Shown here in pieces: positions 2,099 to 47,800 of a stretch of DNA of 48,083 bases (position 1 is the first letter of the stretch; every line of letters starts with the position of its first letter). Where the stretch lies: positions 1 through 48,083 of IMG/VR virus record IMGVR_UViG_3300005096_000100; one strand, written 5' to 3'. The notes below the pieces were generated by a model. The model searched no databases. It saw only the letters and a list, made by a program, of their open reading frames with translations, and was not told the DNA's origin. The translations under genes were made by a program, and so were the position numbers. The DNA comes from a virus.

Positions 2099-2114
2099 GG
2101 TATCACGTGATACC
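2099..2114. repeat. Palindrome GGTATCACGTGATACC, perfect
   Basis: Intergenic, 17 nt upstream of the tail fibre ATG, immediately downstream of a sigma70-like -10. Confidence 0.95.
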
Positions 2115-2130
2115 TCCACGGAGACATTAG

Positions 2131-3621
2131 ATGACGGTAGTCAATCAGACTCTTAAGATAACAGGTACGGGAAACGGGTCTGCTTTTGCTTTCTCAATTT
2201 CCCCCATGGTACTGCTGTCGGCGGATGACTTAGTGGTCCTCCATGTGGATACCAACGCTAACCCTAGTGTCACAACAACGCTTATCCGAGGGACGGGTGC
2301 AGCTAACTATAGCGTGGCCGTCTCTTTATTCCCCGGCACCGGCACAGTAACGTACCCGGCAGATGAAGCTACACCTATGCCGGTTGGAGAGTTTATCTTC
2401 ATCAAGCGTCTGCTGACTATCGAACAGCAAGTGAACTTCGAAAACCAGGGAGGTAGTCTGGCAGAAGTTAGAGAGCAAGCTTTCGACCGTTTGACGATGA
2501 TCGCATTGCAGCAGCAGGAAGACATCGACAGGTCGATGAAAATACCCAGCACTTTTACGGGGGTGATTGGGGAACTAGACACGCCCGTAGGCAATAGGTA
2601 TGTGCGACGGAACTCCGCAAACACGGCTTGGGAACATGTAGCTATCGCCACTGCTGAAGCGAGCGCGGGTGACGCGACGCCGACAACATCTTCTCTAGTT
2701 GCTGCTGCTGCGGGAGCCGGTGCCGACTTCTCTCGTGAGGATCACCAGCATCTACTGCCTACTATAACGGTGGCCAAGGGCGGAACGGGGGCTATCACTG
2801 CCGCTGCTGCTCTAGTGGCGTTGGGTGCTGCTAGTTTGACCACTGTTAACACCTTCACTAAAACCCAGACTTTAGTTAAAGGTGCAGACCTTGCTTCAGC
2901 AGCTTCATTGGCGCTGGGTACAGATGGTAACTATTTCGATGTCACTGGCAATATGACAATTGGCACGATTACTGGTTTAGCCGGAACCGAATTTACGCTT
3001 CAGACCGACGACGTGCTAACGCTCACGGATAGTGCTACGCTGGATATGGGCGGGCTCGATATTGTTACAGCAGCCGGTGATCGTTTTAATTTTTACATGG
3101 TAACAGATTCTTTAGCGCAGTTAACGAGCGCAATGTTCGAAGGGATTGGAGCCCCCCGCATATTTGGCAAGATTTTACAAGTCGTCAACGCTCAAACTGG
3201 CGCAGTAGCCACTGGCACTACGACAGTACCAAAAGACGACACGATCCCGCAAAGTGGAGAAGGCGATGAGTATATAACGCTCGCCATCACGCCTGGGAAT
3301 GCTCTCAATACACTACTTGTTGAGGCAGAAATTAATTTATCCCATGCCGGCGGTGCGGGGACTACATTAGCCGTAGCTCTGTTTCAAGATAGCATCGCGG
3401 GTGCGATAGCCGCGTCGTTCGATAGTCAATCCGAGGGGGGCCGGCCGGGAGTCGTCACGCTATCTCATAAGATGGTAGCCGGAACGACTTCGGCGATCAC
3501 TTTCAAAATGCGAGCCGGCTCCGACACCGCTGGCACCATGACCTTCAACGGCCAGGGTGGCGCGCGGATATACGGCGGTGTCCTGGCCTCATCCATAACC
3601 ATTATGGAGATAGCGGCATGA
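2131..3621 (+). CDS. Tail fibre protein
   Basis: 496-aa ORF with a GGAG RBS. The N-terminal ~130 aa resemble the conserved virion-attachment domain of podovirus fibres. The distal part is Ala/Gly/Thr-rich and includes SREDHQH. The gene sits in the gp17-like position. Confidence 0.6.
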   Translation: MTVVNQTLKITGTGNGSAFAFSISPMVLLSADDLVVLHVDTNANPSVTTTLIRGTGAANYSVAVSLFPGTGTVTYPADEATPMPVGEFIFIKRLLTIEQQVNFENQGGSLAEVREQAFDRLTMIALQQQEDIDRSMKIPSTFTGVIGELDTPVGNRYVRRNSANTAWEHVAIATAEASAGDATPTTSSLVAAAAGAGADFSREDHQHLLPTITVAKGGTGAITAAAALVALGAASLTTVNTFTKTQTLVKGADLASAASLALGTDGNYFDVTGNMTIGTITGLAGTEFTLQTDDVLTLTDSATLDMGGLDIVTAAGDRFNFYMVTDSLAQLTSAMFEGIGAPRIFGKILQVVNAQTGAVATGTTTVPKDDTIPQSGEGDEYITLAITPGNALNTLLVEAEINLSHAGGAGTTLAVALFQDSIAGAIAASFDSQSEGGRPGVVTLSHKMVAGTTSAITFKMRAGSDTAGTMTFNGQGGARIYGGVLASSITIMEIAA

Positions 3622-3890
3622 GCAGCTTAGCCGAAGTCCTAGAATTCAAATTCCCTGCTGTCGAGGGTATTAGAACGCGGGAAAGCGAAAACGGTGGTAT
3701 GGAGATTTTCGACTGGCCCGGCCCTGGTCTGACGCCGACGCCGACACAAATAGCGGTATGGACAACCGAATACGATAGCCGCGTTATCACGCCTGACCCG
3801 ATCCAGGCTGCGACAACCTTAGATGAGCTAAAGACTGCACTGGTTGACCGCGTGACGCCACGTCGATTTAAGCAGGCGAATAGGTCATAA
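3618..3890 (+). CDS. Hypothetical protein (90 aa)
   Basis: ATGA start/stop overlap with the fibre gene suggests translational coupling. Confidence 0.5.
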   Translation: MSSLAEVLEFKFPAVEGIRTRESENGGMEIFDWPGPGLTPTPTQIAVWTTEYDSRVITPDPIQAATTLDELKTALVDRVTPRRFKQANRS

Positions 3891-3935
3891 GTTAACGTCG
3901 TGATATTTAGGCGTATCAACCTGGGAGTTATATTA

Positions 3936-4130
3936 ATGTCACAATACCCCGATGCACTGGTTACGGAACTACAGCAAGAATTGACTAATTCCATCGCTTC
4001 AAAGATATCGAAAGGCGCTCAACTACGTGAAGCTAAACAAGTCATCGAAGCGCAGGAAGCAGTCATAGCTGATCTGAAACAACAAGTGGAACGACTGTTG
4101 GCTCCACAGCTAGATGTTGGTATCACGTGA
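3936..4130 (+). CDS. Hypothetical coiled-coil protein (64 aa)
   Basis: ATG at 3936 is preceded by GGGAG, whereas the ORF-track start at 3900 is GTG without an RBS. The stop TGA lies inside the palindrome copy at 4119..4134 (protein ends ...GIT*). Confidence 0.45.
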   Translation: MSQYPDALVTELQQELTNSIASKISKGAQLREAKQVIEAQEAVIADLKQQVERLLAPQLDVGIT

Positions 4131-4134
4131 TACC
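4119..4134. repeat. Palindrome, perfect
   Basis: Straddles the stop of 3936..4130, 25 nt upstream of ATG 4159. Confidence 0.95.
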
Positions 4135-4158
4135 GATACAGCGTAGACAGAGGATTTC

Positions 4159-4503
4159 ATGGTGGACGCAGTAAGTATAGAAGTTGCGCAACTACGAACG
4201 GAAGTTGGTAGTTTGGGGAAGAAGCAAGCTGGCGTGTCCGCTACCTTGCAAAACCACATTGTCCACGACGATGATCGTTTCGGGATGCTTAGAGACGATC
4301 TAAGGACCACTTCAGATGACTTCAAAACGATGGCTACGAAACTATCTGAAAGTACGGGGAAGCTTCACGCGAAGATAGACACCTTCAAACATAGTGTGAT
4401 GACTGCTTCTCTGGTCATAACGGCCACCATGCTGCTTAGCGCGGCAGGCGTCATATGGGCGTTGCTGCAATACCAAATCATACATCCTGCGACGGGGGCA
4501 TGA
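4159..4503 (+). CDS. Hypothetical membrane-anchored protein (114 aa)
   Basis: Coiled-coil-like N-terminal part and one C-terminal hydrophobic helix (MTASLVITATMLLSAAGVIWALL). Confidence 0.5.
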   Translation: MVDAVSIEVAQLRTEVGSLGKKQAGVSATLQNHIVHDDDRFGMLRDDLRTTSDDFKTMATKLSESTGKLHAKIDTFKHSVMTASLVITATMLLSAAGVIWALLQYQIIHPATGA

Positions 4504-4506
4504 CCA

Positions 4507-4788
4507 ATGGCCGAGGTTTTTAAAACTCCCGTAACCGGGACTTTTACAAGTACGGGGGCGAGCGCCGCTTTCGTAACTCGTGAGGGCTTCAACATCTCAC
4601 TACGAGATTTTGGCGATGCTGAAGTGCAGCTACAACGGTCTTTCGACAAGGGCGTTAACTGGGGGGTTGTTGAAGCTTTCACGGCGAATGCAGAGAAGCG
4701 CGTGGACGATCCTGAAAGCGGAGTATACTACCGCTTCAATTGCTCGTCTTATACATCCGGCACGATAGTTTACAGACTTAGCAGTTAG
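4507..4788 (+). CDS. Hypothetical protein (93 aa)
   Basis: Compact ORF 3 nt after the previous stop, within the tail accessory region. Confidence 0.5.
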   Translation: MAEVFKTPVTGTFTSTGASAAFVTREGFNISLRDFGDAEVQLQRSFDKGVNWGVVEAFTANAEKRVDDPESGVYYRFNCSSYTSGTIVYRLSS

Positions 4789-4799
4789 GAGCAACTACT

Positions 4800-5795
4800 A
4801 TGAGAACCTTAGACGTATACACTCTAGAGAACGCTGCGAAGCATTACGCAGAGCAATTCACGATGGAAAGTGTGAAGGGTTTATTATCGGATAAATTCAT
4901 CGGCGGCTACGGTTACGTCCTACAAAACATGTTTGATCTCACTTTCAAAGATGAGTATGAACGTGTACTAGCTGCGCTTACTGACCAACTATCTCAAGAC
5001 GATCTTACGAAGTTCAAACGAAACTTCAGAGGGTACCACTACCCTCGCAGCGATGACGTTCTGGAAGAACTACTACTTGAACGTCTCGCCCTCAATCCGT
5101 TGGGGGAGCACGTTCATGGGTTTGTCGGAAAGACGCAGGTAGGTAATCGTCGCGTCGGCTCCACAATTGTAGAAAGCGAGCTACGTCGCAAACCTACCGG
5201 AGTGAAGAAATTTCTAGGTATGAAAGGTGAGTTGATCGAGAAAGTTTTCCGCGTCAAGCCTGAATACTGGCCAGTGTACGCTGGAGAGCTTACGGAACGT
5301 GCGGCGGGCAGTGATGCGGTCGATGAGCTGCCGAAGGGCGCAGAACCTTATACCGAGATGGTGTTGGCGCTAAACCCCCGTATCGCTAACGTTGCTGCTA
5401 TTGCTGCCGCCGATGCAATCGTTGACTTAATCGACGGGGGTACTTCGGCTGGTAATATCCGTGGGCGCACTGGAGCACAGCCAGCGGGTGCGGATGAAAC
5501 CGAAACAGGTACTCTGCTGTTTACGCTTGTCATGTCTGACCCAGCATTCGGTAACGCTGCGGACGGCACACCCGGCGGAGTAGCAACAGCATCCGCAATC
5601 ACGGACGATAGTTCCGCAGACGCCACAGGTACGTTAGGATATTGCAGAGTGGCCGCAGTTGGGACTTCACCGGACGACATTATGGATGGAGAAGCTGGTA
5701 CTAGCGGTGCTGACTTTAACTTTAGCACTTTGTCTATCGTATCTGGGGCTACCATATCCATGTCTTCATTTACTGTAACTATGCCGGAGAGTTAA
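4800..5795 (+). CDS. Hypothetical virion/tail accessory protein (331 aa)
   Basis: Long ORF with an RBS-like GGAG upstream and a Gly/Ala/Thr/Asp-rich C-terminal domain. No catalytic motif recognised. Confidence 0.55.
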   Translation: MRTLDVYTLENAAKHYAEQFTMESVKGLLSDKFIGGYGYVLQNMFDLTFKDEYERVLAALTDQLSQDDLTKFKRNFRGYHYPRSDDVLEELLLERLALNPLGEHVHGFVGKTQVGNRRVGSTIVESELRRKPTGVKKFLGMKGELIEKVFRVKPEYWPVYAGELTERAAGSDAVDELPKGAEPYTEMVLALNPRIANVAAIAAADAIVDLIDGGTSAGNIRGRTGAQPAGADETETGTLLFTLVMSDPAFGNAADGTPGGVATASAITDDSSADATGTLGYCRVAAVGTSPDDIMDGEAGTSGADFNFSTLSIVSGATISMSSFTVTMPES

Positions 5796-5808
5796 GGAAG
5801 TAAAAAAT

Positions 5809-6336
5809 ATGGCTAAGTTAATTTTCCGCAGCACTGACAGTCCTCTATCACAAGGATATAAAGACGGGGACCTTGTAGAGATATTTCCTGACGGACATGT
5901 CTTCGGGAGTTCAGAGACTGCTGAAAATTGGGTAAACAGTGGACGACTTTTAGAGGACTGGCACGCTAAACTTATCCTTGTTGACATCCCCGGCAGTGTG
6001 GAAGATTTATCCGCTCTACTATACGCAGGATTTACGGGGGCAGGAAAGCCTAGTGGCGCTAATGTGGTTCGGCGGCAGTTTAAGACAGACGTTAATCAAC
6101 TAGAAAGACGTGATGTATCTTTCTATTCCCAAGATGATCTTGTGAACCCCTCACGACCAACGGCTATGCGTTTGGGGGAAAGTAACCTGGAGAAACCCAT
6201 CCGACGAGACACGCTTAGAGCATATAATTTTGTGGAGCGGGTCGGCAGTACGCTGCTTTTGCCGTACAGGACGGTCAAGCCTGACACTGTAGAGTACTAT
6301 GAAGAGTCCGTGCCCGATCCAGAGATACCTCAATGA
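5809..6336 (+). CDS. Hypothetical protein (175 aa)
   Basis: ORF with an AGGAAG RBS. Its stop overlaps the next start. Confidence 0.55.
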   Translation: MAKLIFRSTDSPLSQGYKDGDLVEIFPDGHVFGSSETAENWVNSGRLLEDWHAKLILVDIPGSVEDLSALLYAGFTGAGKPSGANVVRRQFKTDVNQLERRDVSFYSQDDLVNPSRPTAMRLGESNLEKPIRRDTLRAYNFVERVGSTLLLPYRTVKPDTVEYYEESVPDPEIPQ

Positions 6337-7727
6337 CAGCTCACACTTTCGATATAGCCGCGACAGGAGGCGATTATTCTTCTCTGTCTACTTGGGAGGC
6401 TGCTGAACAATCGACCATTGCTGACGGAGATTTCTTCGTTTGCTATATATTCGAAAGCTACGCTAATACTACTAATTTAGCGATAGCAGGGTGGACCTTT
6501 ACAGGGGACGCTCACTTAGTTTTTACAAAAGACCCGTTGGCGACACACCATCAAGGAATCCCTGGTGTCGGGGCCACTATTAATCATAGAGTTATTATGC
6601 AGAATAGCTCTGGATATCTTCTCTGTACAGACTTATATTTTCTAAGCGTAAATCAATGTCTCGGTGCTAGTCATTGGGGAAACTCAGATGATGTTCGAGC
6701 ACATAGATGTATATTCAAATCGACGGCAAGTTACGCCTTCCCTTATTCTCACGCTGGCGGTGCGGGCGGGCATGATTACCAGCTATGGAATTGTCTATTT
6801 TGGGATAGTTATAGCTGGGGCGCAAGCATAGATAACGGAACAGGTGTACTTGGGACGGTAGATTGTCGTAACCTTACTCTAATTGGAGGTAACACCCAAG
6901 GCAGTATCTATACTGGGGGCTTCAGAATATCTGGGAGCCAACTGGGTTTCACCGGCACCGCCAACAATATCACAATATTTGATAATCCCGAAGGAAGTAA
7001 TACTGACGAGTTCACTGTAGACGAAGCCGACATTATTCCTTATGCCATCGGGGCAGAGGACGGCAGTGAAACTGGGACGAACTCTTTCGTATCTAGGAGC
7101 GCAGAGTTCACCGACCATGACAATAACGACTGGACAGTAGCGGATACAGACAGTCGAATGTATAATATAGGGTTCGATAACAGCGCCGTCTTCACAGACG
7201 ATATCCGAGGAATTACTCGCACCCAATGGGACAGCGGGGCTTTTGGGTTTGTAGCAGCTAGTGGTAATACAGCCGCGCTATCTTTAACAAATCTATCTAT
7301 GTCTGCTTCTGGCGTAGAGGAAATAGTATCTTCCGCAGCCGCAGCATTGTCTATGGCGATAGTGGCTGCTTCAGCAACTCAAGGGATACCTAGCACGGCC
7401 ACGGCCACATTAGCTGCTGCCCTAATGGTGGCCTCTGGGGCTTCGCTTGATGGGATATCCGGCACCGCAGTCGTTACTCTGGGGGCTCCTGCACTGGTGG
7501 CCTCTGGTGATGAGACTATGACGGCGACCGCTGCTTTAGCGCTGTCGTTTATAGTGCTGGATGGGTTAGGTATAGCCGGCATAACAACTTCAACAGGCGT
7601 CATAAACCTACCAGCCCTTAGTGTGATCGCGGGAAGACTTGAAAAGTTAGGTATCAAAAGTCCCGCCGTAATAAGAGCGTTAACTTCTAATTTAGTATCA
7701 AACCTCATAAGTAAACTGAATGGGTGA
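6333..7727 (+). CDS. Putative tail fibre/spike-like protein with a repeat-rich C-terminus (464 aa)
   Basis: ATGA overlap with the upstream gene. The central region looks beta-rich. The C-terminal ~130 aa form about six Ala/Ser/Thr/Gly-rich units of ~21 aa. Confidence 0.45.
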   Translation: MTAHTFDIAATGGDYSSLSTWEAAEQSTIADGDFFVCYIFESYANTTNLAIAGWTFTGDAHLVFTKDPLATHHQGIPGVGATINHRVIMQNSSGYLLCTDLYFLSVNQCLGASHWGNSDDVRAHRCIFKSTASYAFPYSHAGGAGGHDYQLWNCLFWDSYSWGASIDNGTGVLGTVDCRNLTLIGGNTQGSIYTGGFRISGSQLGFTGTANNITIFDNPEGSNTDEFTVDEADIIPYAIGAEDGSETGTNSFVSRSAEFTDHDNNDWTVADTDSRMYNIGFDNSAVFTDDIRGITRTQWDSGAFGFVAASGNTAALSLTNLSMSASGVEEIVSSAAAALSMAIVAASATQGIPSTATATLAAALMVASGASLDGISGTAVVTLGAPALVASGDETMTATAALALSFIVLDGLGIAGITTSTGVINLPALSVIAGRLEKLGIKSPAVIRALTSNLVSNLISKLNG

Positions 7728-8187
7728 TATCATGCGAATTGAAGTACAAAGAATAGTTGAAGACGGTGAAGCTACTCTTTCCACCATTAGCTTAGAAGGT
7801 TCTGTGTTTAGCTTCGGTCTGGAAGACCAGAGACAGGCTATCGCTAAAGTCATGGATGAAACCAGGGTGCCAGCGGGGAGCTACCGTACTTTGTTGCGAG
7901 ATGCGGGCGGCATGAATAAACGTTACCACGCGAAGTTCCCTCAAATACACAAGGGTATGCTCCATCTGCAAGGTGTGCTGGGGTTCACTTACATATACTT
8001 TCACATCGGGAACACAGACGACGATACGTCGGGCTGTATATTGGTGGGCAGAGGTGCCAGTATATTGCAGAAGGGGTTAACTGTACAGAGCAGCACACCG
8101 GCTTACTTAGAACTATATAGCGCGGTATCCGAAGCCGCATTCAGAGACGAATTAACCACGGAAATCTACGACATAGTGAGGAACTAA
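7720..8187 (+). CDS. YkuD/L,D-transpeptidase-fold-like protein (DUF5675-like); candidate cell-wall enzyme
   Basis: The motif FHIGNTDDDTSGCILVG resembles the His...SxGC catalytic signature. An alternative start is at 7732. It is the last-but-one gene of the late block. Confidence 0.4.
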   Translation: MGDIMRIEVQRIVEDGEATLSTISLEGSVFSFGLEDQRQAIAKVMDETRVPAGSYRTLLRDAGGMNKRYHAKFPQIHKGMLHLQGVLGFTYIYFHIGNTDDDTSGCILVGRGASILQKGLTVQSSTPAYLELYSAVSEAAFRDELTTEIYDIVRN

Positions 8188-8189
8188 CC

Positions 8190-8444
8190 ATGTATAAGGA
8201 ACTGCTAGACAAAGCTGAAGTAACCCGTAGCGAATTACTCATTGCTTACGAACAGTTGAACAAAGACCGTGACCGCTTCCAAGCAATACTGGGGGTCGAG
8301 GCCACTGGTGCAGAGGTGACAGGACTGCTTAAGAAGTATGGACCTATGGTGTTAAAATACACTACCGCAGGTGGGGCTGGAGCCGGTGTCCTAGCTGGAC
8401 TGGGGAACGTATTCCCCAGCATAGCTAAGATTTTTGGGGGCTAA
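8190..8444 (+). CDS. Small protein with a Gly-rich hydrophobic C-terminus (84 aa); holin-like candidate
   Basis: The C-terminal TTAGGAGAGVLAGLGNVFPSIAKIFGG segment and its position next to the candidate wall enzyme. Confidence 0.4.
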   Translation: MYKELLDKAEVTRSELLIAYEQLNKDRDRFQAILGVEATGAEVTGLLKKYGPMVLKYTTAGGAGAGVLAGLGNVFPSIAKIFGG

Positions 8445-9136
8445 ATCCTCATAGGGTGTGAGAATTCACATCCATTATTACTTTCTCTACACTCGTCGAT
8501 ATCCTCTATAGTTAGCCCGCGTTTGTTGCATGCGCTACAAGCGAATAGCATGGGCGGTGTTGTCGGCGGAAGAGGCGCATCGTCAGCATCCAAGATAGCC
8601 ATCATGGCTTGGTAATTTTTTAACATGTCCTTACAAGAGGCGTAAGGGCAATTAGCATTACTATCACTGCACTTCTCAATGTCTTCTATAGTCAGGTCAC
8701 GGCTACCACACGATAAGCAATTCGTCAACAAGTCGGAAGCACTCCGCCTCTCCACAGTAGGATAAGACATCTTCAAATAGTTCCTCATATGGCAGCGAGG
8801 GTCTTCGCATCGGGCGATACTTAGTAAACTGACATTGTTCCTACGACACATACGGCAATCCCATGACGACTCACTGTCCTCCGGTACCCCATCTTTTGTA
8901 TGCAGCATATTGATAGTTTCAGCGTAGCCTTTGATGTCGTCCACACTGTCTTGATGGTCTGGCGTCTGCACTAGCCGAGATACGTTAACTAGGATCATGT
9001 AGAGAGCGTGCTTGACCTTCGGATCAGAGCAAACTTCAAGGCTTCTAGCCATGGACGATATGCGCTCGAAGTCATCCCGAGGATGACCGTAGGTTTTGCC
9101 ACGTTCTTCTGTCAATTTCTTGCTGATGTCAGTCAT
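8441..9136 (-). CDS. DUF6378/MazG-like all-alpha N-domain fused to three Cys-rich modules (231 aa)
   Basis: The N-terminal pattern GKTYGHP...F..I......KHALYMILVNVSRL...HQDSVDDIKGYA matches my recollection of the phage DUF6378 family. The C-terminal half has three CxxC...LTIEDI(E/D)xC....C modules. Confidence 0.5.
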   Translation of the reverse strand: MTDISKKLTEERGKTYGHPRDDFERISSMARSLEVCSDPKVKHALYMILVNVSRLVQTPDHQDSVDDIKGYAETINMLHTKDGVPEDSESSWDCRMCRRNNVSLLSIARCEDPRCHMRNYLKMSYPTVERRSASDLLTNCLSCGSRDLTIEDIEKCSDSNANCPYASCKDMLKNYQAMMAILDADDAPLPPTTPPMLFACSACNKRGLTIEDIDECRESNNGCEFSHPMRI

Positions 9137-9639
9137 AGTTCTTCCTTATTTCGTCCATAAAAAGCTAGTAAAGCAGCTTCACATCGTCCATCTAATAGGC
9201 CACCGTTCGGACCAAACCACAGCGTTTCATTGTCGGGAAATAGTTCTAGGCATTTAAGCAATGCTGTTTCTTTATTCGCTCCTATGCCAAAGAAGTTTTT
9301 CCAGATCGTAGGACGGATTAACCTATACTCATACTCCAGCGCCGATAGTACGCCCCGGATAACTCCGAAAGATTGACCAAACGAAAACATCGAAGACACC
9401 CCCTGTCCAGGCATAGCACTGACACTTTCTAAATATACTGTACCGTTTAAACTATCCATTAAACTGACTAAAACTAGTTCATCAATCTCCCGACGTTTTT
9501 TACTTTTCCGAGATTTCGTAGCTACGTCGCGTACTGGAATATCCCACACCCGTAGAGCGCCGTCAGGTTTAAGGTGCGCGATAGCACCAGATACGCCAGG
9601 GTCTATACCTACCGTAGTACACTTAAATGTGCTAGTCAT
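9133..9639 (-). CDS. RuvC-like Holliday junction resolvase
   Basis: N-terminal VGIDPGVSGAIA (catalytic Asp motif), ESVSAMPGQG, and C-terminal DGRCEAALLA. Typical of the phage RuvC fold. Confidence 0.75.
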   Translation of the reverse strand: MTSTFKCTTVGIDPGVSGAIAHLKPDGALRVWDIPVRDVATKSRKSKKRREIDELVLVSLMDSLNGTVYLESVSAMPGQGVSSMFSFGQSFGVIRGVLSALEYEYRLIRPTIWKNFFGIGANKETALLKCLELFPDNETLWFGPNGGLLDGRCEAALLAFYGRNKEEL

Positions 9640-9836
9640 TCTACGTCCTTTAAGATGAGTAAGTATTTTCCATCGGCTCGGTCAAACGTACCGTCGATCA
9701 CTAGATACCGACCACACGTGTCTCCTATGTCGTTATCTTCGTAGGTATCACGTGATACCTCTCGCACGTGGTAGTTAGATAGTGGGCTTGTGCGCCTAGC
9801 TAACATATCTCTCCATCTGGTGAATTTTAGTATCAT
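9636..9836 (-). CDS. Hypothetical protein (66 aa)
   Basis: Overlaps both neighbours by 4 nt. Contains palindrome copy 9744..9759, read as VSRDT. Confidence 0.5.
   Translation of the reverse strand: MILKFTRWRDMLARRTSPLSNYHVREVSRDTYEDNDIGDTCGRYLVIDGTFDRADGKYLLILKDVE
9744..9759. repeat. Palindrome, perfect (intragenic)
   Basis: Inside 9636..9836, read as VSRDT. Confidence 0.95.
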
Positions 9837-11977: not shown

Positions 11978-12017
11978 GGTGCTACCCTTTTTTAGACTAG
12001 GTTACGGACGACCTGAA

Positions 12018-12598: not shown

Positions 12599-12614
12599 GA
12601 TATCACGTGATACC
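12599..12614. repeat. Palindrome, 1 mismatch (GATATCACGTGATACC)
   Basis: Intergenic, 24 nt upstream of start 12575. Confidence 0.9.
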
Positions 12615-13909: not shown

Positions 13910-15127
13910 TTAGCCTTTCTTAATAGGTTTGAAGAGCGACTTAGCGTCCCTCTTAATGCGACGGCGAGGGTCGCCCTCGACCGCCACGGTGGTACTGCCT
14001 TTGGGTTTGAAGGCCCATCTAGCAGTGAATGCTTTACCTTCCGGTAGCGCATCCAATTGGGCAGGCGATAGAAACGTCGGTTTAGACATCATACGCTTGC
14101 CGAATTTCTTCTTAGCGGCAGTCTCCGCACCTTTCTTGTATTTGCGGTTGCTGCGAGAAGCTACCAGTTTTAACCCCGGTACTTCTTTACCGTTGGTTAG
14201 GAGTTGAAATGCTTTTGTGTTTGCCGCTTTGAAAGCAATCTTCGATAGAGACTGCAATTCAATAATGCGACCAAGCTGTGCGTTCGTTAGAGCGTCCGCA
14301 CCTTTCGTTCCTGAAGCCATCATCAATAATCCTTGTAGTTCTTCCATGGTTTCCATGATCGCGGGGCACTGGTGGCCACGTGCAGGACAGAACCGACAAT
14401 GTTCGCCGGCAACGGTATCACGTGATACCTCTGTGCGTTCCATAGCCGGTACACATTCATCGAACAGCCAAGCGTCTAAGTCATCTGGCGATATCTCCCA
14501 AGTCCTATGAGGCCCATCATGGTGCCAGCCTCGGGGCTGTATGATATGTAGAACAACCTTAGTCACAGTGTCCCAAATCATCAGGTCCTCGATGATGCCA
14601 GCAGCATAGTAAAGACATTGCGGGTTCTTCTCGACTTCAACTACGATGCCTGCGCCATGCTTGTAATCGTAGACATGTAGTACGTTTTCTTCCGAGAAGT
14701 ATGAAAAGTCCGACATGCTATAGAAATCAGGATGTATGCCAGGACAGTGGAACCTGCGTTCGACCCAAGAATTACCTTGGTTCCGGTCAGGGTGCCATTC
14801 ATTGACGATATGCAGGAAATACTGCACCGCGTCAGCCATCTCTTTAGTGACTGTAACAAGTAAACCACTGTTGTATTCTAATGGTACGTCGCCATCTTCG
14901 TAAATTTTGCCATCCGATGTTATGATGTGTCCGATTAACTCCCAAGGTTCATGACCGTGGGAGAGGCACAGTTCTGCAAGGACATGCGCAGCTTGGCCCT
15001 CACGAGTATAGTCTTCGCCGTCGTTAGTCAGCCCGTCACTCTGGTAGACGGAACCGGAACACACCATCCATCGATGTGCCCCGCTTCCGCCCAGAGGTGA
15101 GTGAGCTTTCAATTCACTCACTGCCAT
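13910..15127 (-). CDS. DUF2800-type PD-(D/E)XK (Cas4/RecB-like) nuclease
   Basis: 405 aa. N-terminal GGSGAHRWMVCSGS, central D..Y.YKHG, and a C-terminal Cys cluster CRFCPARGHQCP. Confidence 0.7.
   Translation of the reverse strand: MAVSELKAHSPLGGSGAHRWMVCSGSVYQSDGLTNDGEDYTREGQAAHVLAELCLSHGHEPWELIGHIITSDGKIYEDGDVPLEYNSGLLVTVTKEMADAVQYFLHIVNEWHPDRNQGNSWVERRFHCPGIHPDFYSMSDFSYFSEENVLHVYDYKHGAGIVVEVEKNPQCLYYAAGIIEDLMIWDTVTKVVLHIIQPRGWHHDGPHRTWEISPDDLDAWLFDECVPAMERTEVSRDTVAGEHCRFCPARGHQCPAIMETMEELQGLLMMASGTKGADALTNAQLGRIIELQSLSKIAFKAANTKAFQLLTNGKEVPGLKLVASRSNRKYKKGAETAAKKKFGKRMMSKPTFLSPAQLDALPEGKAFTARWAFKPKGSTTVAVEGDPRRRIKRDAKSLFKPIKKG
14414..14429. repeat. Palindrome, perfect (intragenic)
   Basis: Inside the DUF2800 nuclease gene, read as VSRDT. 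Confidence 0.95.
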
Positions 15128-15972: not shown

Positions 15973-15988
15973 GGTATCACGTGATACC
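15973..15988. repeat. Palindrome, perfect
   Basis: Intergenic, 21 nt upstream of start 15952. Confidence 0.95.
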
Positions 15989-19060: not shown

Positions 19061-19076
19061 GGTATCACGTGATACT
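19061..19076. repeat. Palindrome, 1 mismatch (GGTATCACGTGATACT)
   Basis: Straddles the stop of 19065..19544, 45 nt upstream of start 19016. Confidence 0.9.
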
Positions 19077-20464: not shown

Positions 20465-20480
20465 GGTATCACGTGATACC
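20465..20480. repeat. Palindrome, perfect
   Basis: 22 nt upstream of the HTH gene start at 20443. Confidence 0.95.
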
Positions 20481-20554: not shown

Positions 20555-21541
20555 CTACTTCTTGCTCTTCTTCTTTTTCTTCTTCGGCGCAGGACGTTGA
20601 AGCGCTTTCGGTATGGGAGGCATGTCGCCCGGCTCAAGGTTTTCGTCAGGAACATAGCCAGCGTCTTCCTTGACATCGGCACCGTCGGACACGTCCAGGC
20701 CAAGCTCTGCCGCCGCCCAACGAACGAACGTCATCTGCGCTTTAACAGACATGTTGTTAAAAGCATCAACCGTGGTATCGTACACGCTCTTACCCTTACG
20801 GCTCTTAACCGCTTTGGCTTCGGCATCCGTTACGACAGTCAATCCGTTGTTGCCGGCAATGCTCTTAATACTAAGCGCACGTTCTTCCGGCTTCATCGAC
20901 TTCAAAGCATTCTGCACTTGGTCAAAAGAACTTACCTTCGGCGCAGACGGCGCGGCACTGGGACCGGCACCCCGTCCATCGTCCGTACCCTTGGCGGCAC
21001 GGGACTTTTTATTCGCCGCTTTGTTACGGTTACGCAGGTCTTCAAGCATAAGCGCACCAGCGCCCTTGTCTTCGTTTTCCGCAACTCCGATGGCCACCAG
21101 CTTACGGGCAGTTTGCCATCCTTGGTCGATATTAGTTTCAACCCAATCCTGGAATTTGATACCAACATCAGTACACTGTTCTTTAGCGACCGCTAAGCGA
21201 CATGCAGCCGACAAGCGATGGTCGTCAGCTTGACCAGAGAGCTTCGATGCTTTCTTAAACCGGACATTGATTTCGGTCGCCGTCGCTTCAAGCTTGCGCT
21301 CGGTACGCTGCTTGGCGGCAACTTCCTTCAGTTCCTTGTTCGTCTTGTCCCGTTCGGCGTCAGCTTGGCGCTTAAACCGCTTGGCTTCCCGCTCGGCATC
21401 CCGTGCGCTGGCGTTGGCGGCTTTAGCCTTGTCCCTCGCTTGGGCAATCTTGGTGGCCGCGACCTGTTCCGCTTCGGACAGTTCGCGAGCCTTCTTCGGC
21501 TTGGCTTTGCTTTTGGTTTCCGCTTTCTTTTTCGTAGCCAT
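20555..21541 (-). CDS. Lys/Ala-rich, probably DNA-binding protein (328 aa)
   Basis: Start MATKKK at 21541 has an AAGGAAGAC RBS; the longer track ORF overlaps the upstream gene. Both termini are basic (the C-terminus ends KKKKKKSKK), and the central part is coiled-coil-like. Confidence 0.55.
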   Translation of the reverse strand: MATKKKAETKSKAKPKKARELSEAEQVAATKIAQARDKAKAANASARDAEREAKRFKRQADAERDKTNKELKEVAAKQRTERKLEATATEINVRFKKASKLSGQADDHRLSAACRLAVAKEQCTDVGIKFQDWVETNIDQGWQTARKLVAIGVAENEDKGAGALMLEDLRNRNKAANKKSRAAKGTDDGRGAGPSAAPSAPKVSSFDQVQNALKSMKPEERALSIKSIAGNNGLTVVTDAEAKAVKSRKGKSVYDTTVDAFNNMSVKAQMTFVRWAAAELGLDVSDGADVKEDAGYVPDENLEPGDMPPIPKALQRPAPKKKKKKSKK

Positions 21542-21581: not shown

Positions 21582-21597
21582 GGTATCACGTGATACC
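21582..21597. repeat. Palindrome, perfect (extends to a 20-bp palindrome, 21580..21599)
   Basis: Intergenic, 40 nt upstream of start 21541. A TTGACA hexamer (minus strand, 21604..21609) lies 6 nt away. Confidence 0.95.
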
Positions 21598-23203: not shown

Positions 23204-23219
23204 GGTATCACGACACACC
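23204..23219. repeat. Degenerate palindrome copy (GGTATCACGACACACC, 3 mismatches; flanks TTT/AAA)
   Basis: Lies between the divergent early promoters. Confidence 0.5.
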
Positions 23220-25595: not shown

Positions 25596-25611
25596 GGTAT
25601 CACGTCATACC
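25596..25611. repeat. Palindrome, 1 mismatch (GGTATCACGTCATACC)
   Basis: At the edge of the AT-rich origin-like region. Confidence 0.85.
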
Positions 25612-28418: not shown

Positions 28419-28434
28419 GGTATCACGTGATACC
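28419..28434. repeat. Palindrome, perfect
   Basis: In the divergent control region 28284..28897. Confidence 0.95.
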
Positions 28435-31657: not shown

Positions 31658-31673
31658 GGTATCACGTGATACC
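31658..31673. repeat. Palindrome, perfect
   Basis: Intergenic, 17 nt upstream of the portal ATG. Confidence 0.95.
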
Positions 31674-33798: not shown

Positions 33799-34167
33799 AT
33801 GGTATCACGTGATACCTCTGACGCGAAACTCGTTAAGACCCAGGAAGAGATGCACGAAGTTCGGACCACTCTACATAGAGAGATGATGGCTAAAGTGCTC
33901 GGCACTTATGAGGGGCGACATATTCTGTATAACGTTCTGGCATTGGGGGATATATATGAGCAAAGAGACAGTATGTCTTATGGTTTGGCGGAAAGCCAAC
34001 GGGCTATAGGGCGTAGGGAAATGTCGCTGGATTTGCTTAAAGACATATTGACAGCCGATCCGAACGCTTATATTGTCATGCAACAAGAGGTTGGGGCCTT
34101 CGAGGAAAAGTTTGAAGTTGTAGAAGACGCACCGGAAGAGGATGAAGATGATGACGATCATGAATGA
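33799..34167 (+). CDS. Hypothetical acidic protein (122 aa)
   Basis: ATG with a GGGGAG RBS 8 nt upstream. Codons 2-6 (VSRDT) are the palindrome copy at 33801. Confidence 0.5.
   Translation: MVSRDTSDAKLVKTQEEMHEVRTTLHREMMAKVLGTYEGRHILYNVLALGDIYEQRDSMSYGLAESQRAIGRREMSLDLLKDILTADPNAYIVMQQEVGAFEEKFEVVEDAPEEDEDDDDHE
33801..33816. repeat. Palindrome, perfect
   Basis: Begins with the G of ATG 33799. Read as codons 2-6 (VSRDT). Confidence 0.95.
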
Positions 34168-36436: not shown

Positions 36437-36473
36437 CCTGGTATGACGTGATACCAGGGCGGCGTTTTCTTTT
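36437..36473 (+). terminator. Rho-independent terminator after the capsid/decoration genes
   Basis: Stem CCCTGGTATGAC/GTGATACCAGGG (contains the palindrome variant), followed by CGGCGTTTTCTTTT. Confidence 0.6.
36440..36455. repeat. Palindrome, 1 mismatch (GGTATGACGTGATACC), embedded in a terminator stem
   Basis: Flanks CCCT/AGGG extend the stem. A T-run follows. Confidence 0.9.
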
Positions 36474-41280: not shown

Positions 41281-41743
41281 GTATGAAATTGGGCCAGCAA
41301 ATCTAGACGATGTAAAGTATGTGTCTGCGAACTTGCGCCAGGGAGATAAGGATGAATTACAGGCTATGGTGCTAGGCGATGTAAGTCCTAGTTGCGCTGT
41401 GCTGTCGAGCTATATGGTATCACGTCATACCACTTATATCGGATACGCAAACGGCACTCCTGTAATCGTGTTTGGCGTCAAACCTCCTACCTTAATGGGT
41501 GAGGTGGCCACACCTTGGCTAGTAGGAACCGATGAAGTGCAGAAATATTCGAAAGCTTTCCTTCGGCACAGTTTAGGCGTGGTAGAACTTTGGAAGAAAC
41601 AATATCCGTTCATGCGGAACTATGTAGACGTGCGGAATACTTTCTCTATAAGGTGGTTGCAGTGGTTGAAATTTTCGGTATACTACCCAGAGCCTTATGG
41701 ACCTAGAAATTTACCATTCCATATGTTTGAAATGAGGACGTAA
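41270..41743 (+). CDS. Internal virion protein A-like (DUF2833/gp13-position)
   Basis: ATG at 41270 overlaps the nozzle gene stop. The pattern ANLRQGDKDEL...PWLVGT...IRWLQWLKF fits. Confidence 0.5.
   Translation: MKNKYEIGPANLDDVKYVSANLRQGDKDELQAMVLGDVSPSCAVLSSYMVSRHTTYIGYANGTPVIVFGVKPPTLMGEVATPWLVGTDEVQKYSKAFLRHSLGVVELWKKQYPFMRNYVDVRNTFSIRWLQWLKFSVYYPEPYGPRNLPFHMFEMRT
41416..41431. repeat. Palindrome, 1 mismatch (GGTATCACGTCATACC; same variant as 25596), intragenic
   Basis: Inside the gp13-like gene, read as VSRHT. Confidence 0.85.
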
Positions 41744-44833: not shown

Positions 44834-44840
44834 ATAAATT

Positions 44841-47800
44841 ATGGCTGAAAATGTCTTTGGAGTGCCTTCTTCAGATACCAGTTTGCGCGATGATTTCGTT
44901 AGTGGTCCGGACCCATTAGAATTACAGCGGTTTAAGAAAGCTGCTTCTGACTTGTTTGGAGATACACCAGACGTTATAAATAACGCACCCGAAGATACAG
45001 AATTACAGCGGTTTAAGAAAGCTGCTTCTGACTTGTTTGGGGATGCGCCGGACACTAAAAAAGCGGAAGCATCGGTCGAGGTATCACGTGATACCGACCC
45101 AGACACGTTCGCTAAGCAGGTTGACACTGCTAATGAACTAAACATACCCGTAGAAGCGGTCGAAGCTGCGCCCGAAGAAGCGGAATTACAACGGTTTAAG
45201 AAAGCTGCTGCTGAACTATTTAGCGACAGTCCGGCCACTGCTAAGTTCATGGAGAACCCTGCTAACGCTAAGTTGGCTAACGACAGCCTTGAAGAGCTTG
45301 GCTTTATAGAAGCTACGGTAAACTCCGTTAAGCGAAGCATGCTGGGTATTGGGCAAGCGTATCAGCAAGTCTTGACGGAGGAAAACCTTGAACAGAGCTT
45401 AGATAGCAGGCGAACTTTTGGAGAAATCCTCGACACTTACGCCGCCCGCAACCCAGGAGCCGTAACTAACCCAATTGATTTAATGTTGTCTTTAGAGCGC
45501 TACGCCAGTTCTAGGATATTTGGAGATGCGGACGAAGGTTTCCGTGGACGCGCGGCAAAGGTTGGGGCGTTAGCCGAAGAGCGCATGAAACTCCCTATGT
45601 CGGACGGCGCTAAAGACTTCATGAAAGGTGTTGAAGATGCCGAAGGTATTTTAGCTAAACTAGCCGCAGTCGCACTGGACCCAGTAGGTATGAGCGCCTT
45701 CGCTGCTGAAGTAGGTATAGAATTCATACCGCAGCTTCTGTTAGCTTCCGCTGCTACCTTAGCTACACGCAGCCCTGCCGTAGGTTCCGCAGCTTTGGGC
45801 TCTCTGTCTTTTGGCACGGAACGTTTTCGTTCCCCGCAGGAATTCCTTCAAGCGGCTGGAGTAGATTTAACTGATCCAGAACAAGTTAATGCTTTGTTGG
45901 CGGACCCGAAGACATTTGAAGAAGCTAAGAAGTTCGGCTTTGACAGAGGCATTGTGATCGGCGCTGTTGATGCTCTGTCCGGTGGCCTAGCCGGTAAAGC
46001 ACTAGCTAATAATCCTCTAGCTAATCTAGTCCTTCAAACCGCTGTGCAAGGCGTTATGGGTGGCGCTGGTGAAGCGGGCGCGGGCTTAGTTACTAAAGGC
46101 GAGATTGATATAAATGAAGTGATCTTCGAAGCTATCGGAGAGTTTGCTACTACGCCTATCGAAGTGGCGGGCATAGGCGGTAGGCCGCTATTCAGAAAGT
46201 TGAAAGAAACGGTTGACCAGAACCGCGCGGAGCAAAGCAAAGTTGCGATGGATGCGCTATCTAAAGCTTTGATCGACTCTCCGCTAACCGAACGCTCGCC
46301 TGAAGCAGCGGCGGAACATGCGGCAGCTAGTTTCCAGGAAGCCGGTGTAGAAGAAATCTATATCCCTATCGAAGCGTTGAATGTAGCGCTTGAAACGAAC
46401 GAAACGCTATTGAACGATTTAGAAGTTCTGGATCAAGTGGCGGATGCTGAAGCGTTTGGCGGGGACATAACGATAACTTCTAAATTGTTTTCGCAATTCG
46501 TATTGCAGAACCCAGAAGTATATACTTTGCTGAAAGACCACATTCGCGCGGACCCTGACGCTGTGACTGTTTCTGAAAGCCAAGAAATTCTAGGAGATAT
46601 CGAGGGGGCCACGGTTGTAGAGGACTTCGCCGGTACTACGGAAGAAGAGGTGTCACGTGATACCCCGTTGGAAGGTACCGTAGAAGAGACAACTAACCCA
46701 GAAGATGTGGCTGTCGTGGAGTTGGCTGAATTCGAAGCGGGCCGTCAAGCGTTGTACTCTACGGCAGAGGAAGCGGGTCTGTCGGAAGCGCTGTTCACGA
46801 CCTATGTTGAAGCTATCCAGAACCGACGTTCGGAAGCCGTCAAGGGCGTAGAGAGGAAGCGTCTGAGACGCATACAGAAACGTAACACTGCGAAGTACCA
46901 GGAAGCTAGGGAAGGACTACGGCAGGGCGTTGAAGAGACCGTAGCCCAACAACCTCTATATCAAGTGCTTTTATCCATAGGCCGTGACAGGCTAAACTAC
47001 GACGCCGTACTGGAGATATTCCAGGGAAACGTAGAAGCCATGAAGCGCTTGCCTAAGCTCAACGGCAGGACGATATACTCCACCAAAACTGATCCAGGCA
47101 TCGATCCAGAGATATTTGCCGATATCCAGGGTTTCGAAGGCGGGGCTGATGTATTCTTATTCAGTTTGTTAGACAGTCCTACGTTCGAACAAGCGGTCGA
47201 GAATGAAATCAACAAACGGATGGAAGAGAAATTCCCGACCATCTTGAGTATTGGGCAACAGGTGGCCGAAGCTTTAGAAACTTTGAACACGCCTGATGCA
47301 CACGGGTTAGTGCTGACTTTTGAGTTAGCAGCTATTAGGAAAGCTAAAGGTGAGAAACGTCTTAAGCGTTCTCTGTTGCGTGTTCGCGCATTGGACATAC
47401 TGGCTAAGTATAGAGTTAGTCAGATCAATCCTCGTAAGCTGGAGACGATGCAGAAACGTGAAGCTGTTCTCGCTCGTAAGGCTCTTAAGGCTGGTGACTT
47501 AGATGCAGCGGGAGTGCATAAGCTCAACCAAATCACTGCTTATGAGATGACGCGGGAAAGCTACAAAATAAAACGTGAACTGGAGATAGGTAACAGGTTC
47601 ATGCGTCGGTTCATCGGGCGCAACAAGAAACATAAAACTCTACCCATCGACCATCTCGACATGATAAAGCAGGTGCTAGATGACTATGACTTTGGTGCCG
47701 GTTCTAAAGCTTCGAGAGATTTGCAAAGCTGGATCGATGCCAAGCAGCAGGACGAAGGCATCGTCATGGACGTTGCGTCAGAGGTCATAGAGAACGACGG

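What the first reader, a model, noticed from the sequence alone, without database searches (positions are those of the whole stretch)
2099..46664. Genome-wide array of the 16-bp perfect palindrome GGTATCACGTGATACC (11 perfect, 6 one-mismatch, 1 degenerate copy)
Perfect copies start at 2099, 4119, 9744, 14414, 15973, 20465, 21582, 28419, 31658, 33801 and 45080. One-mismatch copies start at 12599, 19061, 25596, 36440, 41416 and 46649. A 3-mismatch copy starts at 23204. A given 16-mer is expected about 1e-5 times in this genome (47992/4^16), so chance is excluded. Copies occur on average every ~2.7 kb (gaps 1.1-5.6 kb) around the whole circle and in all four transcription blocks. Thirteen of the 18 sit in the very short intergenic gaps. 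There they lie typically 15-45 nt upstream of an RBS/start, or straddle the preceding stop (4119, 19061) or a start (33801). Copies also mark both divergent control regions and the origin-like region. No consensus extends beyond the 16 bp. The dyad symmetry fits a dimeric DNA-binding protein; as RNA the motif is a 6-bp stem with an ACGT tetraloop. Known genome-wide phage site families, such as cluster A mycobacteriophage stoperators and cluster K start-associated sequences, are asymmetric and unrelated in sequence. I do not recognise this motif from any described phage regulon.
Basis: partly seen in the sequence, partly recalled or inferred. Interest (0 to 1): 0.92.

Follow-up and report, generated by a model that had tools for sequence, protein, structure and literature searches.

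The report
Evenly spaced palindrome array in phage
A 16-letter DNA palindrome occurs 18 times at unusually regular intervals around this uncultivated marine phage genome and is kept, letter for letter and often place for place, in distant relatives, which marks it as the docking site of a still unidentified two-part DNA-binding protein that acts on the whole genome.

Summary
In detail: 18 copies of GGTATCACGTGATACC (11 perfect) against 0.15 expected by chance. It is a real, selected feature. The same 16-mer recurs many times in dozens of uncultivated viral contigs whose proteins are only 30-75% identical to the window's. It often sits at the same gene junctions, and even at the same codon inside two genes, where every synonymous position is frozen. 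Sites are strongly non-coding (P=2e-10) and much more evenly spaced than chance (P=3e-4; reproduced in a complete relative). Half-sites never occur alone. Within a genome they vary independently, so base pairing is not selected. Between lineages both halves switch together (GGTCTC..GAGACC, GGGATC..GATCCC). That pattern fits a two-fold symmetric DNA-binding protein, not an RNA hairpin, terminator, Chi site, origin iteron or phage-polymerase promoter. The reader protein is not identified. The Lys-rich early protein is universal and syntenic, belongs to an orphan family, and its core domain is fused to an HNH nuclease elsewhere, but one relative has it without the array. The motif is also enriched in Rhodospirillales genomes, so a host factor remains possible. 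The closest precedents are the Cluster O mycobacteriophage dyad repeats and the KorB sites of plasmid RK2.

The parts
2099..2114 (.). perfect site, intergenic. 36 nt after the stop of the 1738-aa ORF and 16 nt before the start of 2131-3621
4119..4134 (.). perfect site. Contains the TGA stop of 3900-4130 and lies 24 nt before the next start
9744..9759 (.). perfect site, 73 nt downstream of the PolA gene (minus strand)
12599..12614 (.). one-mismatch site (GATATC...), intergenic
14414..14429 (.). perfect site inside the DUF2800 nuclease gene, read as V-S-R-D-T at aa ~233. It is at the same codon in at least 8 relatives, with all synonymous positions frozen
15973..15988 (.). perfect site, intergenic
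19061..19076 (.). one-mismatch site overlapping the stop of 19065-19562 (minus strand)
20465..20480 (.). perfect site, 74 nt downstream of the Lys-rich gene and 21 nt upstream of the HTH gene start
21582..21597 (.). perfect site, 40 nt upstream of the Lys-rich gene start
23204..23219 (.). degenerate site (3 mismatches) in the divergent early control region, 27 nt upstream of the -35 of the best sigma-70-like promoter (23246-23274)
25596..25611 (.). variant site GGTATCACGTCATACC, just beyond the iteron and AT-rich origin-like region
28419..28434 (.). perfect site in the divergent region upstream of the packaging and structural genes
31658..31673 (.). perfect site, intergenic, 16 nt upstream of the portal gene
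33801..33816 (.). perfect site beginning at the third base of the ATG of 33799-34167
36440..36455 (.). variant site at the apex of a 15-pair intrinsic terminator (36430-36465 plus T-run) after the head genes
41416..41431 (.). variant site inside the gp13-like gene 41252-41743, read as V-S-R-H-T at aa ~55. The position is conserved in 5 relatives
45080..45095 (.). perfect site inside the 1738-aa internal virion protein ORF
46649..46664 (.). one-mismatch site inside the same 1738-aa ORF
20555..21541 (-). Lys-rich early protein (328 aa), the best phage-encoded candidate for the protein that reads the sites. This is inferred, not shown. The conserved central domain is encoded by 20957-21292

Best explanation
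The 18 palindromes are high-affinity binding sites on double-stranded DNA for a two-fold symmetric (homodimeric) sequence-specific protein. They form a genome-wide, evenly spaced array that is a hallmark of an uncultivated family of marine podoviruses. Shown here: the sites are under strong purifying selection as DNA, they are kept at orthologous places, the whole palindrome is the functional unit, and base pairing between the arms is not what is selected. That protein has basic tails, a long coiled coil, an invariant helical core domain, and a core domain that is fused to an HNH nuclease in other elements. Further inferred: a dimer docks at each site and then spreads, oligomerises or bridges over about 1-3 kb, so that an array with no gap longer than about 5 kb lets one protein act on the entire chromosome. 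The most likely action is global control of host-RNAP transcription (roadblock or silencing and timing). Alternatively it coats or organises the phage DNA. In this it works like KorB on the OB sites of plasmid RK2, or the repressor on cluster A stoperators, but with an unrelated protein.
For: The sites are real and non-random. The exact 16-mer is multi-copy in many IMG/VR contigs that are protein-level relatives at 30-75% identity, and also in relatives fetched independently of the motif. Positions are conserved: the DUF2800 site at aa ~229-233 in 8 relatives and the gp13-like site in 5, plus recurrent TerS|TerL, PrimPol-adjacent and Lys-rich-adjacent junctions. In DUF2800, GTA TCA CGT GAT ACC is frozen at all synonymous positions while flanking codons vary, and in the GGTCTC lineage the motif switch forces D->E. 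Non-coding enrichment gives P=1.9e-10, and junctions are expanded to hold a site. The even spacing (CV 0.44, P~3e-4) is reproduced in the complete relative 22745_58 (CV 0.52, P=8e-4). The largest site-free gap, 4135-9743, is lineage-specific accessory DNA. Half-sites are never isolated. Within a genome the half-site variants are independent: 9 one-arm and 1 double against 8.5 and 1.3 expected. Lineage-specific symmetric variants are used throughout a genome, for example GGTCTCACGTGAGACC 14 times in 14.5 kb. The Lys-rich family is the only protein shared by all 13 lineages, apart from the low-complexity g15131, that is neither enzymatic nor structural. It is syntenic and often duplicated. Its central domain has invariant N, R, D and W residues. 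That domain is fused to an HNH/EndoVII nuclease in P0009 and P0010. The family has 404 representatives, all metagenomic.
Against: No binding has been shown. The Lys-rich protein has no Pfam, NCBIfam, PDB-sequence or Foldseek match to any DNA-binding fold. Its putative recognition helix does not co-vary cleanly with motif positions 3 and 4. L198 has a Lys-rich homologue and every other universal protein but no array. The canonical motif is unchanged across lineages whose Lys-rich core is only 40-58% identical. It is also over-represented, mostly in intergenic DNA, in Rhodospirillales-type bacterial genomes that have no detectable Lys-rich homologue. Both facts fit a host-encoded reader. The proposed spreading or roadblock action is argued by analogy and from the spacing alone.
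Confidence: 0.5

Rival explanations
1. The sites are read by a host protein: a dimeric regulator or chromosome-organising factor of the alphaproteobacterial (Rhodospirillales-like) host. The phage family has accumulated the sites either to recruit that factor or to titrate it away from host targets. Lineage-specific motif variants would then reflect hosts whose orthologue has a slightly different specificity.
For: That is far above the ~139 chance hits expected for the whole 596-Gb collection spread over all taxa. The sites are mostly intergenic, and some are conserved between species. The motif is identical across very divergent phages. L198 has all the conserved phage proteins but no array. 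An unrelated 221-kb viral contig also carries the motif. L196 has a GTA-type holin, which points to alphaproteobacterial hosts.
Against: No transcription factor or any other gene family recurs next to the host sites. There is no ParB or ParA nearby. Only about 1-2 exact copies were seen per genome. The host genes next to the sites form no coherent regulon. Two motif classes coexist in one phage genome (22719_26), together with two Lys-rich paralogues. The taxon enrichment comes from a capped scan and was not tested on whole genomes.
Confidence: 0.3
2. The motif works as RNA or single-stranded DNA: a 6-bp stem with an ACGU loop that acts as a terminator, a processing or stabilising hairpin, or the target of an RNA-binding translational regulator just upstream of ribosome-binding sites.
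For: Intergenic sites lie 5-44 nt upstream of start codons. Site 36440 is the apex of a genuine terminator, and several relatives place the motif at the tip of the equivalent hairpin. A palindrome gives the same RNA on either strand.
Against: Only 1 of the 18 sites has an extended stem and a T-run, and the bare hairpin has a free energy of only -6.2 kcal/mol. One-arm variants that break pairing are common: 106 unpaired against 44 'compensated' cells, and the compensated ones are lineage-fixed. Within 22745_58 the arms vary independently. The loop is invariant and self-complementary. Sites also lie in divergent promoter regions and inside genes.
Confidence: 0.06
3. The sites are recombination linkers: short identical sequences at module boundaries that promote exchange of gene blocks between co-infecting relatives. 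No dedicated binding protein is involved.
For: Identical 16-mers lie at gene junctions in genomes that have otherwise diverged beyond DNA similarity. The phages encode a DUF2800 nuclease plus SSB recombination module. In Cluster O phages, recombination between such repeats has produced indels.
Against: This does not explain the palindromy, the even spacing, the conserved intragenic sites with frozen codons, or the concerted switch of every site in a genome to a new symmetric variant. Sixteen bp is short for homologous exchange.
Confidence: 0.06
4. The sites are replication elements: binding or priming sites for the Prim-Pol/helicase, giving many origins or lagging-strand priming signals.
For: The spacing is even. 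Sites recur next to Prim-Pol in relatives. A site lies beside the origin-like region.
Against: The window has a separate classical iteron cluster (TAAGGCACAG-type, at least 9 copies, 25278-25470) plus an AT-rich tract right after Prim-Pol. L198 has its own iterons in the equivalent place without any palindrome array. The hairpin-dependent versions are disfavoured.
Confidence: 0.04

Closest known systems
Cluster O mycobacteriophage 17-bp dyad repeats (TGTTCGGNNNCCGAACA; Corndog and relatives; PMC4351075)
   Same: A short dyad-symmetric sequence is repeated tens of times throughout a phage genome. About 40% of copies are in short intergenic gaps and the rest are in or at the edge of genes. It is conserved in position among relatives and absent from other phages. 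The authors suggested it binds a dimeric protein, and its function is unknown.
   Different: The sequence, phage group and host (Mycobacterium siphoviruses) are unrelated. It has a 3-bp variable spacer rather than a fully specified 16-mer. It is known only in five nearly identical genomes, so there is no evidence there for deep conservation, motif switching, frozen codons or regular spacing, all of which are seen here.
KorB and its OB operators on IncP plasmid RK2 (ParB-family CTP-dependent sliding clamp; PMC11790492)
   Same: One palindromic site type is dispersed over a ~50-60 kb mobile genome (12 OB sites, from memory). A dimer loads at the sites and acts up to 1.5 kb away to silence promoters globally. 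This is the best functional analogy for evenly spaced sites with kb-scale reach.
   Different: No ParB/Srx CTPase domain protein is detectable in the window. The OB sequence (TTTAGCGGCTAAA) is unrelated. The candidate reader has no known fold. This element is a virus, not a plasmid.
Chromosomal parS / ParB (TGTTNCACGTGAAACA; consensus from memory)
   Same: It is a 16-bp perfect palindrome with the same central CACGTG, and 12 of 16 positions are identical to the motif. The differences are symmetric (positions 1/16 and 4/13).
   Different: parS sites cluster near the origin next to parAB. Here the sites are dispersed, no ParB is encoded, and the host copies are not next to parAB.
Cluster A mycobacteriophage stoperators
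   Same: About 25-30 copies of one short site lie in small intergenic gaps across the whole genome and are bound by one phage protein that blocks transcription through them.
   Different: Stoperators are asymmetric 13-mers, oriented with transcription, and bound by the immunity repressor of temperate phages. Here the site is a perfect palindrome, and no integrase or repressor module was found.
phiC31 conserved inverted repeats bound by the c repressor (from memory, not checked here)
   Same: A set of roughly 17-bp inverted repeats is scattered through a phage genome and bound by one phage regulator.
   Different: phiC31 is a temperate Streptomyces phage. The sites are associated with early promoters, the sequence is unrelated, and no regular spacing is reported.

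Membership tests
ParB-parS / KorB-OB type system | A ParB/Srx-fold CTPase protein with an HTH is encoded by the element | tested here: not met
   Pfam and PHROGs scans of essentially all window proteins found no ParBc or HTH_ParB domain. The Lys-rich protein has no GxxR box and no fold match.
ParB-parS / KorB-OB type system | Palindromic 13-16-bp loading site | tested here: met
   The motif is a 16-bp perfect palindrome. 12 of 16 positions are identical to the parS consensus, which I recalled from memory.
ParB-parS / KorB-OB type system | Protein spreads or slides from the site (CTP-dependent) | not testable with these tools
   This needs ChIP-seq or single-molecule assays. Only the even ~2.7-kb spacing is suggestive.
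Cluster O-type genome-wide dyad repeats | A dyad-symmetric short sequence repeated tens of times across the genome, in intergenic and coding DNA, and conserved in position among relatives | tested here: met
   compared with PMC4351075. This is a resemblance in kind only. The sequences and phages are unrelated, so it is not homology.
Cluster A stoperators | Asymmetric site with an orientation tied to the direction of transcription | tested here: not met
   The site is a perfect palindrome, and the flanks show no oriented signal.
Cluster A stoperators | Temperate phage with an immunity repressor and integrase | tested here: not met
   There is no integrase or repressor family in the window. The only weak HTH protein is not conserved in relatives.
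Intrinsic terminators | GC-rich stem-loop followed by a T-run | tested here: not met
   Only site 36440 qualifies. The other 17 have no stem extension and no T-run.
Structured RNA or DNA hairpin element | Base pairing maintained by compensatory change | tested here: not met
   Within genomes the arms vary independently, and unpaired one-arm variants are common.
Chi-like recombination hotspot | An asymmetric 5-8-mer that is active alone and over-represented in the host | tested here: not met
   There is 1 isolated half-site in the window against ~1.5 expected, and 4 in 374 kb of host loci against 11 expected.
Phage RNA polymerase promoters (T7-like) | The phage encodes its own RNA polymerase, and the conserved motif is oriented | tested here: not met
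   No RNAP domain is present in any large ORF, and the motif is symmetric.
CRP/FNR/NtcA-type activator sites (GTA-N8-TAC) | Site centred at a fixed distance upstream of a -10 element | tested here: not met
   The flanks carry no information at any fixed distance. Start codons lie only 16-44 nt downstream.
REP / MITE repeats | Conserved flanks or terminal inverted repeats, many copies in the host chromosome, and mobility | tested here: not met
   Conservation ends at 16-18 bp. Positions are orthologous rather than mobile. Host loci carry single copies.
Replication origin iterons | Clustered direct repeats next to the initiator gene, with an AT-rich tract | tested here: not met
   That description fits a different repeat at 25278-25470, not the dispersed palindrome.

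The most novel reading that the evidence does not exclude
The array is the cis half of a new genome-marking system that is unrelated to ParB. In this reading an orphan family of Lys-rich coiled-coil proteins (about 400 sequence clusters, all from marine metagenomes) nucleates at evenly spaced palindromes to coat or organise the whole phage chromosome. Specificity switches symmetrically between lineages. Integrative satellite or island elements such as L194 have captured the same DNA-recognition domain and fused it to an HNH nuclease. That would let them cut this phage family at its own indispensable sites, which would be a defence aimed at a conserved cis-element.
Probability: 0.12. Interest if true: 0.9.

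Novelty: new variant of a known kind. Interest (0 to 1): 0.66.

Why it matters
Genome-wide arrays of a single short site are known in a few phages and plasmids. Their purpose is understood only where the reader protein is known, as with KorB and the cluster A repressor. This case offers unusually rich comparative material. The array is conserved across a deep, abundant and uncultivated marine phage family. Its codons are frozen inside genes, its spacing is regular, and natural 'specificity switches' affect both half-sites together. That makes the question of what such arrays are for directly testable with a handful of proteins and oligonucleotides. It also gives a simple sequence signature for recognising this phage family, and perhaps its hosts, in metagenomes.

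Tried and rejected
- **Close cultured relatives:** megablast against GenBank phages found nothing. Protein searches reach only ~31-56% identity, to BPP-1/epsilon15-like capsid and terminase genes and to PaMx/Xp12-like PolA.
- **Phage-encoded ParB:** rejected, because no such domain is present.
- **Host parS next to parAB:** rejected.
- **Autoregulated host transcription factor beside the host sites:** no recurrent family was found.
- **HTH protein 20126-20443 as reader:** rejected, because it is absent from relatives.
- **g15131 as reader:** unlikely. It is an acidic, low-complexity protein with RRRR repeats.
- **Prim-Pol as reader:** unlikely, because it has its own iterons.
- **Fold assignment of the Lys-rich protein:** two AlphaFold models were confident (pLDDT 83 and 85), but Foldseek against the PDB gave nothing below E=0.28. 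Profile and sequence searches of the PDB, Pfam, NCBIfam, PHROGs and plasmids also gave nothing.
- **Co-variation screen across six universal proteins:** no clean signal.
- **The search for related loci with the SNF2 helicase:** returned nothing.
- **Chi-like half-site model:** rejected.
- **Terminator or hairpin model:** rejected for 17 of 18 sites.
- **Phage-RNAP promoter model:** rejected.
- **NtcA/CRP-like activator model:** rejected.
- **Literature search for the sequence:** only eukaryotic E-box or CLEAR-box hits and primers were found.

Full report
**Observation.** Dinucleotide shuffles give a mean of 0.15. The window carries a 91-bp terminal direct repeat, so it is a circular assembly of 47,992 unique bases. 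Three of the one-mismatch copies are the same variant, GGTATCACGTCATACC. With a conservative gene set, only 5.2% of the genome is non-coding. Even so, 11 sites lie wholly in non-coding DNA (P=1.9e-10), three straddle a stop or start codon, and four are intragenic. Junctions that hold a site are 28-111 nt long, whereas junctions without one are mostly -29 to +17 nt. The gaps therefore appear to exist in order to hold the site. A new property is that the sites are far more evenly spaced than chance. The CV of the gaps is 0.44 against ~0.93 expected, with P=2.5e-4 under a uniform null and 3e-4 when positions are restricted to gene junctions.

**What the genome is.** There is no DNA-level match in GenBank phages. 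The capsid and terminase are 40-56% identical to BPP-1/epsilon15-like podoviruses. The late region encodes T7-like internal virion proteins (gp13-like, gp14-like and a 1738-aa LPD22 protein that wraps across the window ends) and a tail protein. The replication module has DUF2800 nuclease, Enc34-type SSB, PolA, SNF2 helicase and Prim-Pol/AAA_25. No RNA polymerase, integrase, ParB or tRNA was found.

**The motif is a family feature under selection.**
- The exact 16-mer occurs in 60 stretches of IMG/VR. Several contigs carry it 5-20 times, and nearly all of them encode proteins 30-75% identical to the window's.
- Relatives fetched through a protein rather than through the motif also carry it.
- Site positions are conserved. 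The intragenic DUF2800 site falls at aa ~229-233 in eight relatives, and the site in the gp13-like gene falls at aa ~53-60 in five. Junctions such as TerS|TerL and those flanking Prim-Pol and the Lys-rich gene recur.
- At codon level the DUF2800 peptide V-S-R-D-T is encoded by GTA TCA CGT GAT ACC, with every synonymous position frozen, in lineages only ~50% identical in protein. Neighbouring codons vary freely. In the lineage that uses GGTCTCACGTGAGACC, the same place reads V-S-R-E-T, so the DNA motif dictates the protein there. The second intragenic site uses the same frame.
- The largest site-free stretch, 4135-9743, is lineage-specific accessory DNA with no homologues in the relatives.
- The even spacing is reproduced in the complete relative 22745_58, with 22 sites, CV 0.52 and P=8e-4.

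**What kind of element it is.**
- Half-sites almost never occur alone: 1 isolated against ~1.5 expected. The unit is therefore the whole palindrome, which excludes a Chi-like signal.
- The flanks carry no information at any fixed distance beyond a weak T/A extension. That excludes a composite promoter and a class II activator geometry.
- Only site 36440 has an extended stem and a T-run. There the motif sits at the apex of the terminator after the head genes, as it does in some relatives, while other relatives have the hairpin without the motif.
- Within a genome the two arms vary independently. In 22745_58 there are 9 one-arm and 1 two-arm variants, against 8.5 and 1.3 expected. Across 218 unique sites, unpaired one-arm variants are common. 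Pairing is therefore not selected, which disfavours RNA or cruciform models.
- Between lineages both arms change together and throughout the genome. Examples are GGTCTCACGTGAGACC (14 copies in 14.5 kb of L182), GGGATCACGTGATCCC (L189-L193), GRTATCACGTGATAYC (L195), and a minor class GCTATCACGTGATAGC in 22719_26.
- Lineages with the canonical motif are as far from each other as from the variant lineages, so the canonical form is ancestral.
- This is the signature of a two-fold symmetric, sequence-specific DNA-binding protein whose specificity occasionally shifts.

**Who reads it.**
- Six families are universal across 13 lineages: Prim-Pol, SNF2, SSB, DUF2800, the acidic low-complexity g15131, and the Lys-rich protein 20555-21541.
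- Prim-Pol has its own candidate sites: a classical iteron cluster (TAAGGCACAG-type, at least 9 copies, 25278-25470) followed by an AT-rich tract. This parallels the iterons of L198.
- The Lys-rich protein has Lys/Ala-rich tails, a long predicted coiled coil and a strongly conserved helical core with invariant N92, R94, D106, D107, R109 and W133. It is syntenic and flanked by sites in most genomes, and it is duplicated in several.
- The core domain defines an orphan family of 404 cluster representatives, all metagenomic and including TARA viral-fraction samples.
- In two members the core domain is fused to an HNH/endonuclease VII-type nuclease (phrog_3322, E=1.6e-29 and 8e-32). This argues that the core domain targets DNA. 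One of these fusions lies in an integrase/primase island (L194) that itself has no copy of the motif.
- Against this candidate: it has no match to any known family or fold and no clean residue-motif co-variation. L198 has a Lys-rich homologue and all the other universal proteins but no array. L198 has only one related palindrome, GGTATTAGCTAATACC, inside its own Lys-rich gene.

**A host factor remains possible.** About 45-50 of these come from Rhodospirillales-type alphaproteobacteria, mostly in intergenic DNA, and some are conserved between Thalassospira species. No neighbouring gene family recurs, there is no ParB or ParA nearby, and there is no Lys-rich homologue. I could not count whole genomes. 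This enrichment probably names the host clade, and L196's GTA-type holin agrees with that. It leaves a host-encoded reader at roughly 0.3.

**Mechanism proposed.**
- Shown: the array is a selected, positionally conserved and evenly spaced set of sites for a symmetric DNA binder.
- Inferred: - Inferred from spacing and architecture only: dimers docked at sites no more than ~5 kb apart spread, oligomerise or bridge, so that one protein controls or coats the entire chromosome. The most likely action is on host-RNAP transcription, because the phage has no polymerase of its own. The strongest sigma-70-like promoter (23246-23274) has a degenerate site just upstream.

**Comparison with known systems.** The closest in kind are the Cluster O mycobacteriophage 17-bp dyad repeats, with 34 copies and unknown function. 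The closest in proposed action is KorB on the OB sites of RK2, which slides up to 1.5 kb. The motif resembles parS (12 of 16 positions, from memory), but the ParB membership tests fail. It is not a stoperator, terminator, REP/MITE, Chi site, iteron or phage-RNAP promoter. The held literature has no bacterial or phage mention of the sequence.

**Verdict.** The feature is real and is a new variant of a known kind. The reader protein and the function are still undetermined.

Noticed in passing
window 1-91 and 47993-48083: There is a 91-bp exact terminal direct repeat, which is the overlap of a circular assembly. The unique genome is 47,992 bp, and a 1738-aa ORF (44838 -> wrap -> 2062, LPD22 domain) crosses the junction.
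   Followed up: yes
window 25278-25595: Immediately downstream of the Prim-Pol/helicase gene there is a dense iteron cluster (TTAAGGCACAG / TAAAGCACAGGT, at least 9 copies in both orientations, 25278-25470), followed by an AT-rich tract (25540-25595). This is a classical origin-like architecture and is distinct from the palindrome.
   Followed up: partly
window 28337-28369: Three tandem copies of the 11-mer GTCGCTTAGCC lie in the divergent control region upstream of the packaging and structural genes. They may be the site of another regulator.
   Followed up: no
L194 (Logan SRR22387960 contig, 10.7 kb), gene 8397-9476: The conserved core domain of the Lys-rich family is fused to an HNH/endonuclease VII-like nuclease. 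The gene lies next to a tyrosine integrase, a Prim-Pol/PriCT/D5_N primase and small HTH genes, which looks like a satellite or island. The element has no copy of the palindrome. It could be a defence that targets the phage's sites.
   Followed up: partly
L198 (ENA ERZ23499028 scaffold_2387), 1-17326: This syntenic relative has all the universal proteins but no palindrome array. It has 7 direct iterons (CTGCATTTAC, in the 2770-3168 gap) next to Prim-Pol, and a single palindrome GGTATTAGCTAATACC at 6915 inside its Lys-rich gene.
   Followed up: partly
L061-L180 (bacterial genome loci): The exact 16-mer is over-represented in Rhodospirillales, Thalassospira, Kiloniella and Magnetospirillum genomes and in alphaproteobacterial MAGs. 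It is mostly intergenic and sometimes lies in multi-copy homologous contexts. One example is directly after the stop of a ~70-aa gene in L065, L168, L140 and L165. The cause is unknown.
   Followed up: partly
L014 3400-3450 and 9790-9840 (IMGVR_UViG_3300024054_000362, 221 kb): An unrelated large viral contig carries the motif twice, inside a ~55-bp repeat with an extended stem (tcaggtccGGTATCACGTGATACCagacctga).
   Followed up: partly
L199 43, 926/958, 1473/1501: Hybrid sites (GGTCACACGTGATACC, GGGCACACGTGATACC) occur in pairs about 30 bp apart near the Lys-rich gene of a TARA contig that otherwise has 10 canonical sites in 10 kb. L189-L191 likewise cluster GGGATAACGTGATCCC hybrids in their early region.
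   Followed up: no
window 3618-9136: The genes in this block have no homologues in the relatives, so it is lineage-specific accessory DNA. It coincides with the largest site-free gap (4135-9743).
   Followed up: partly
window, whole: Outside the motif, the hexamer CACGTG occurs only 5 times against ~11.7 expected. This is a mild depletion of the bare core.
   Followed up: no
window 22097-22774 (-): A pentapeptide-repeat protein (Pfam E=2e-36) is encoded in the early leftward operon. It may be a DNA mimic.
   Followed up: no
window 15131-15667 (-): This universal small acidic protein has repeated PKRRRRSKK / RRGR motifs and a conserved C-terminal helical domain. Its function is unknown.
   Followed up: partly
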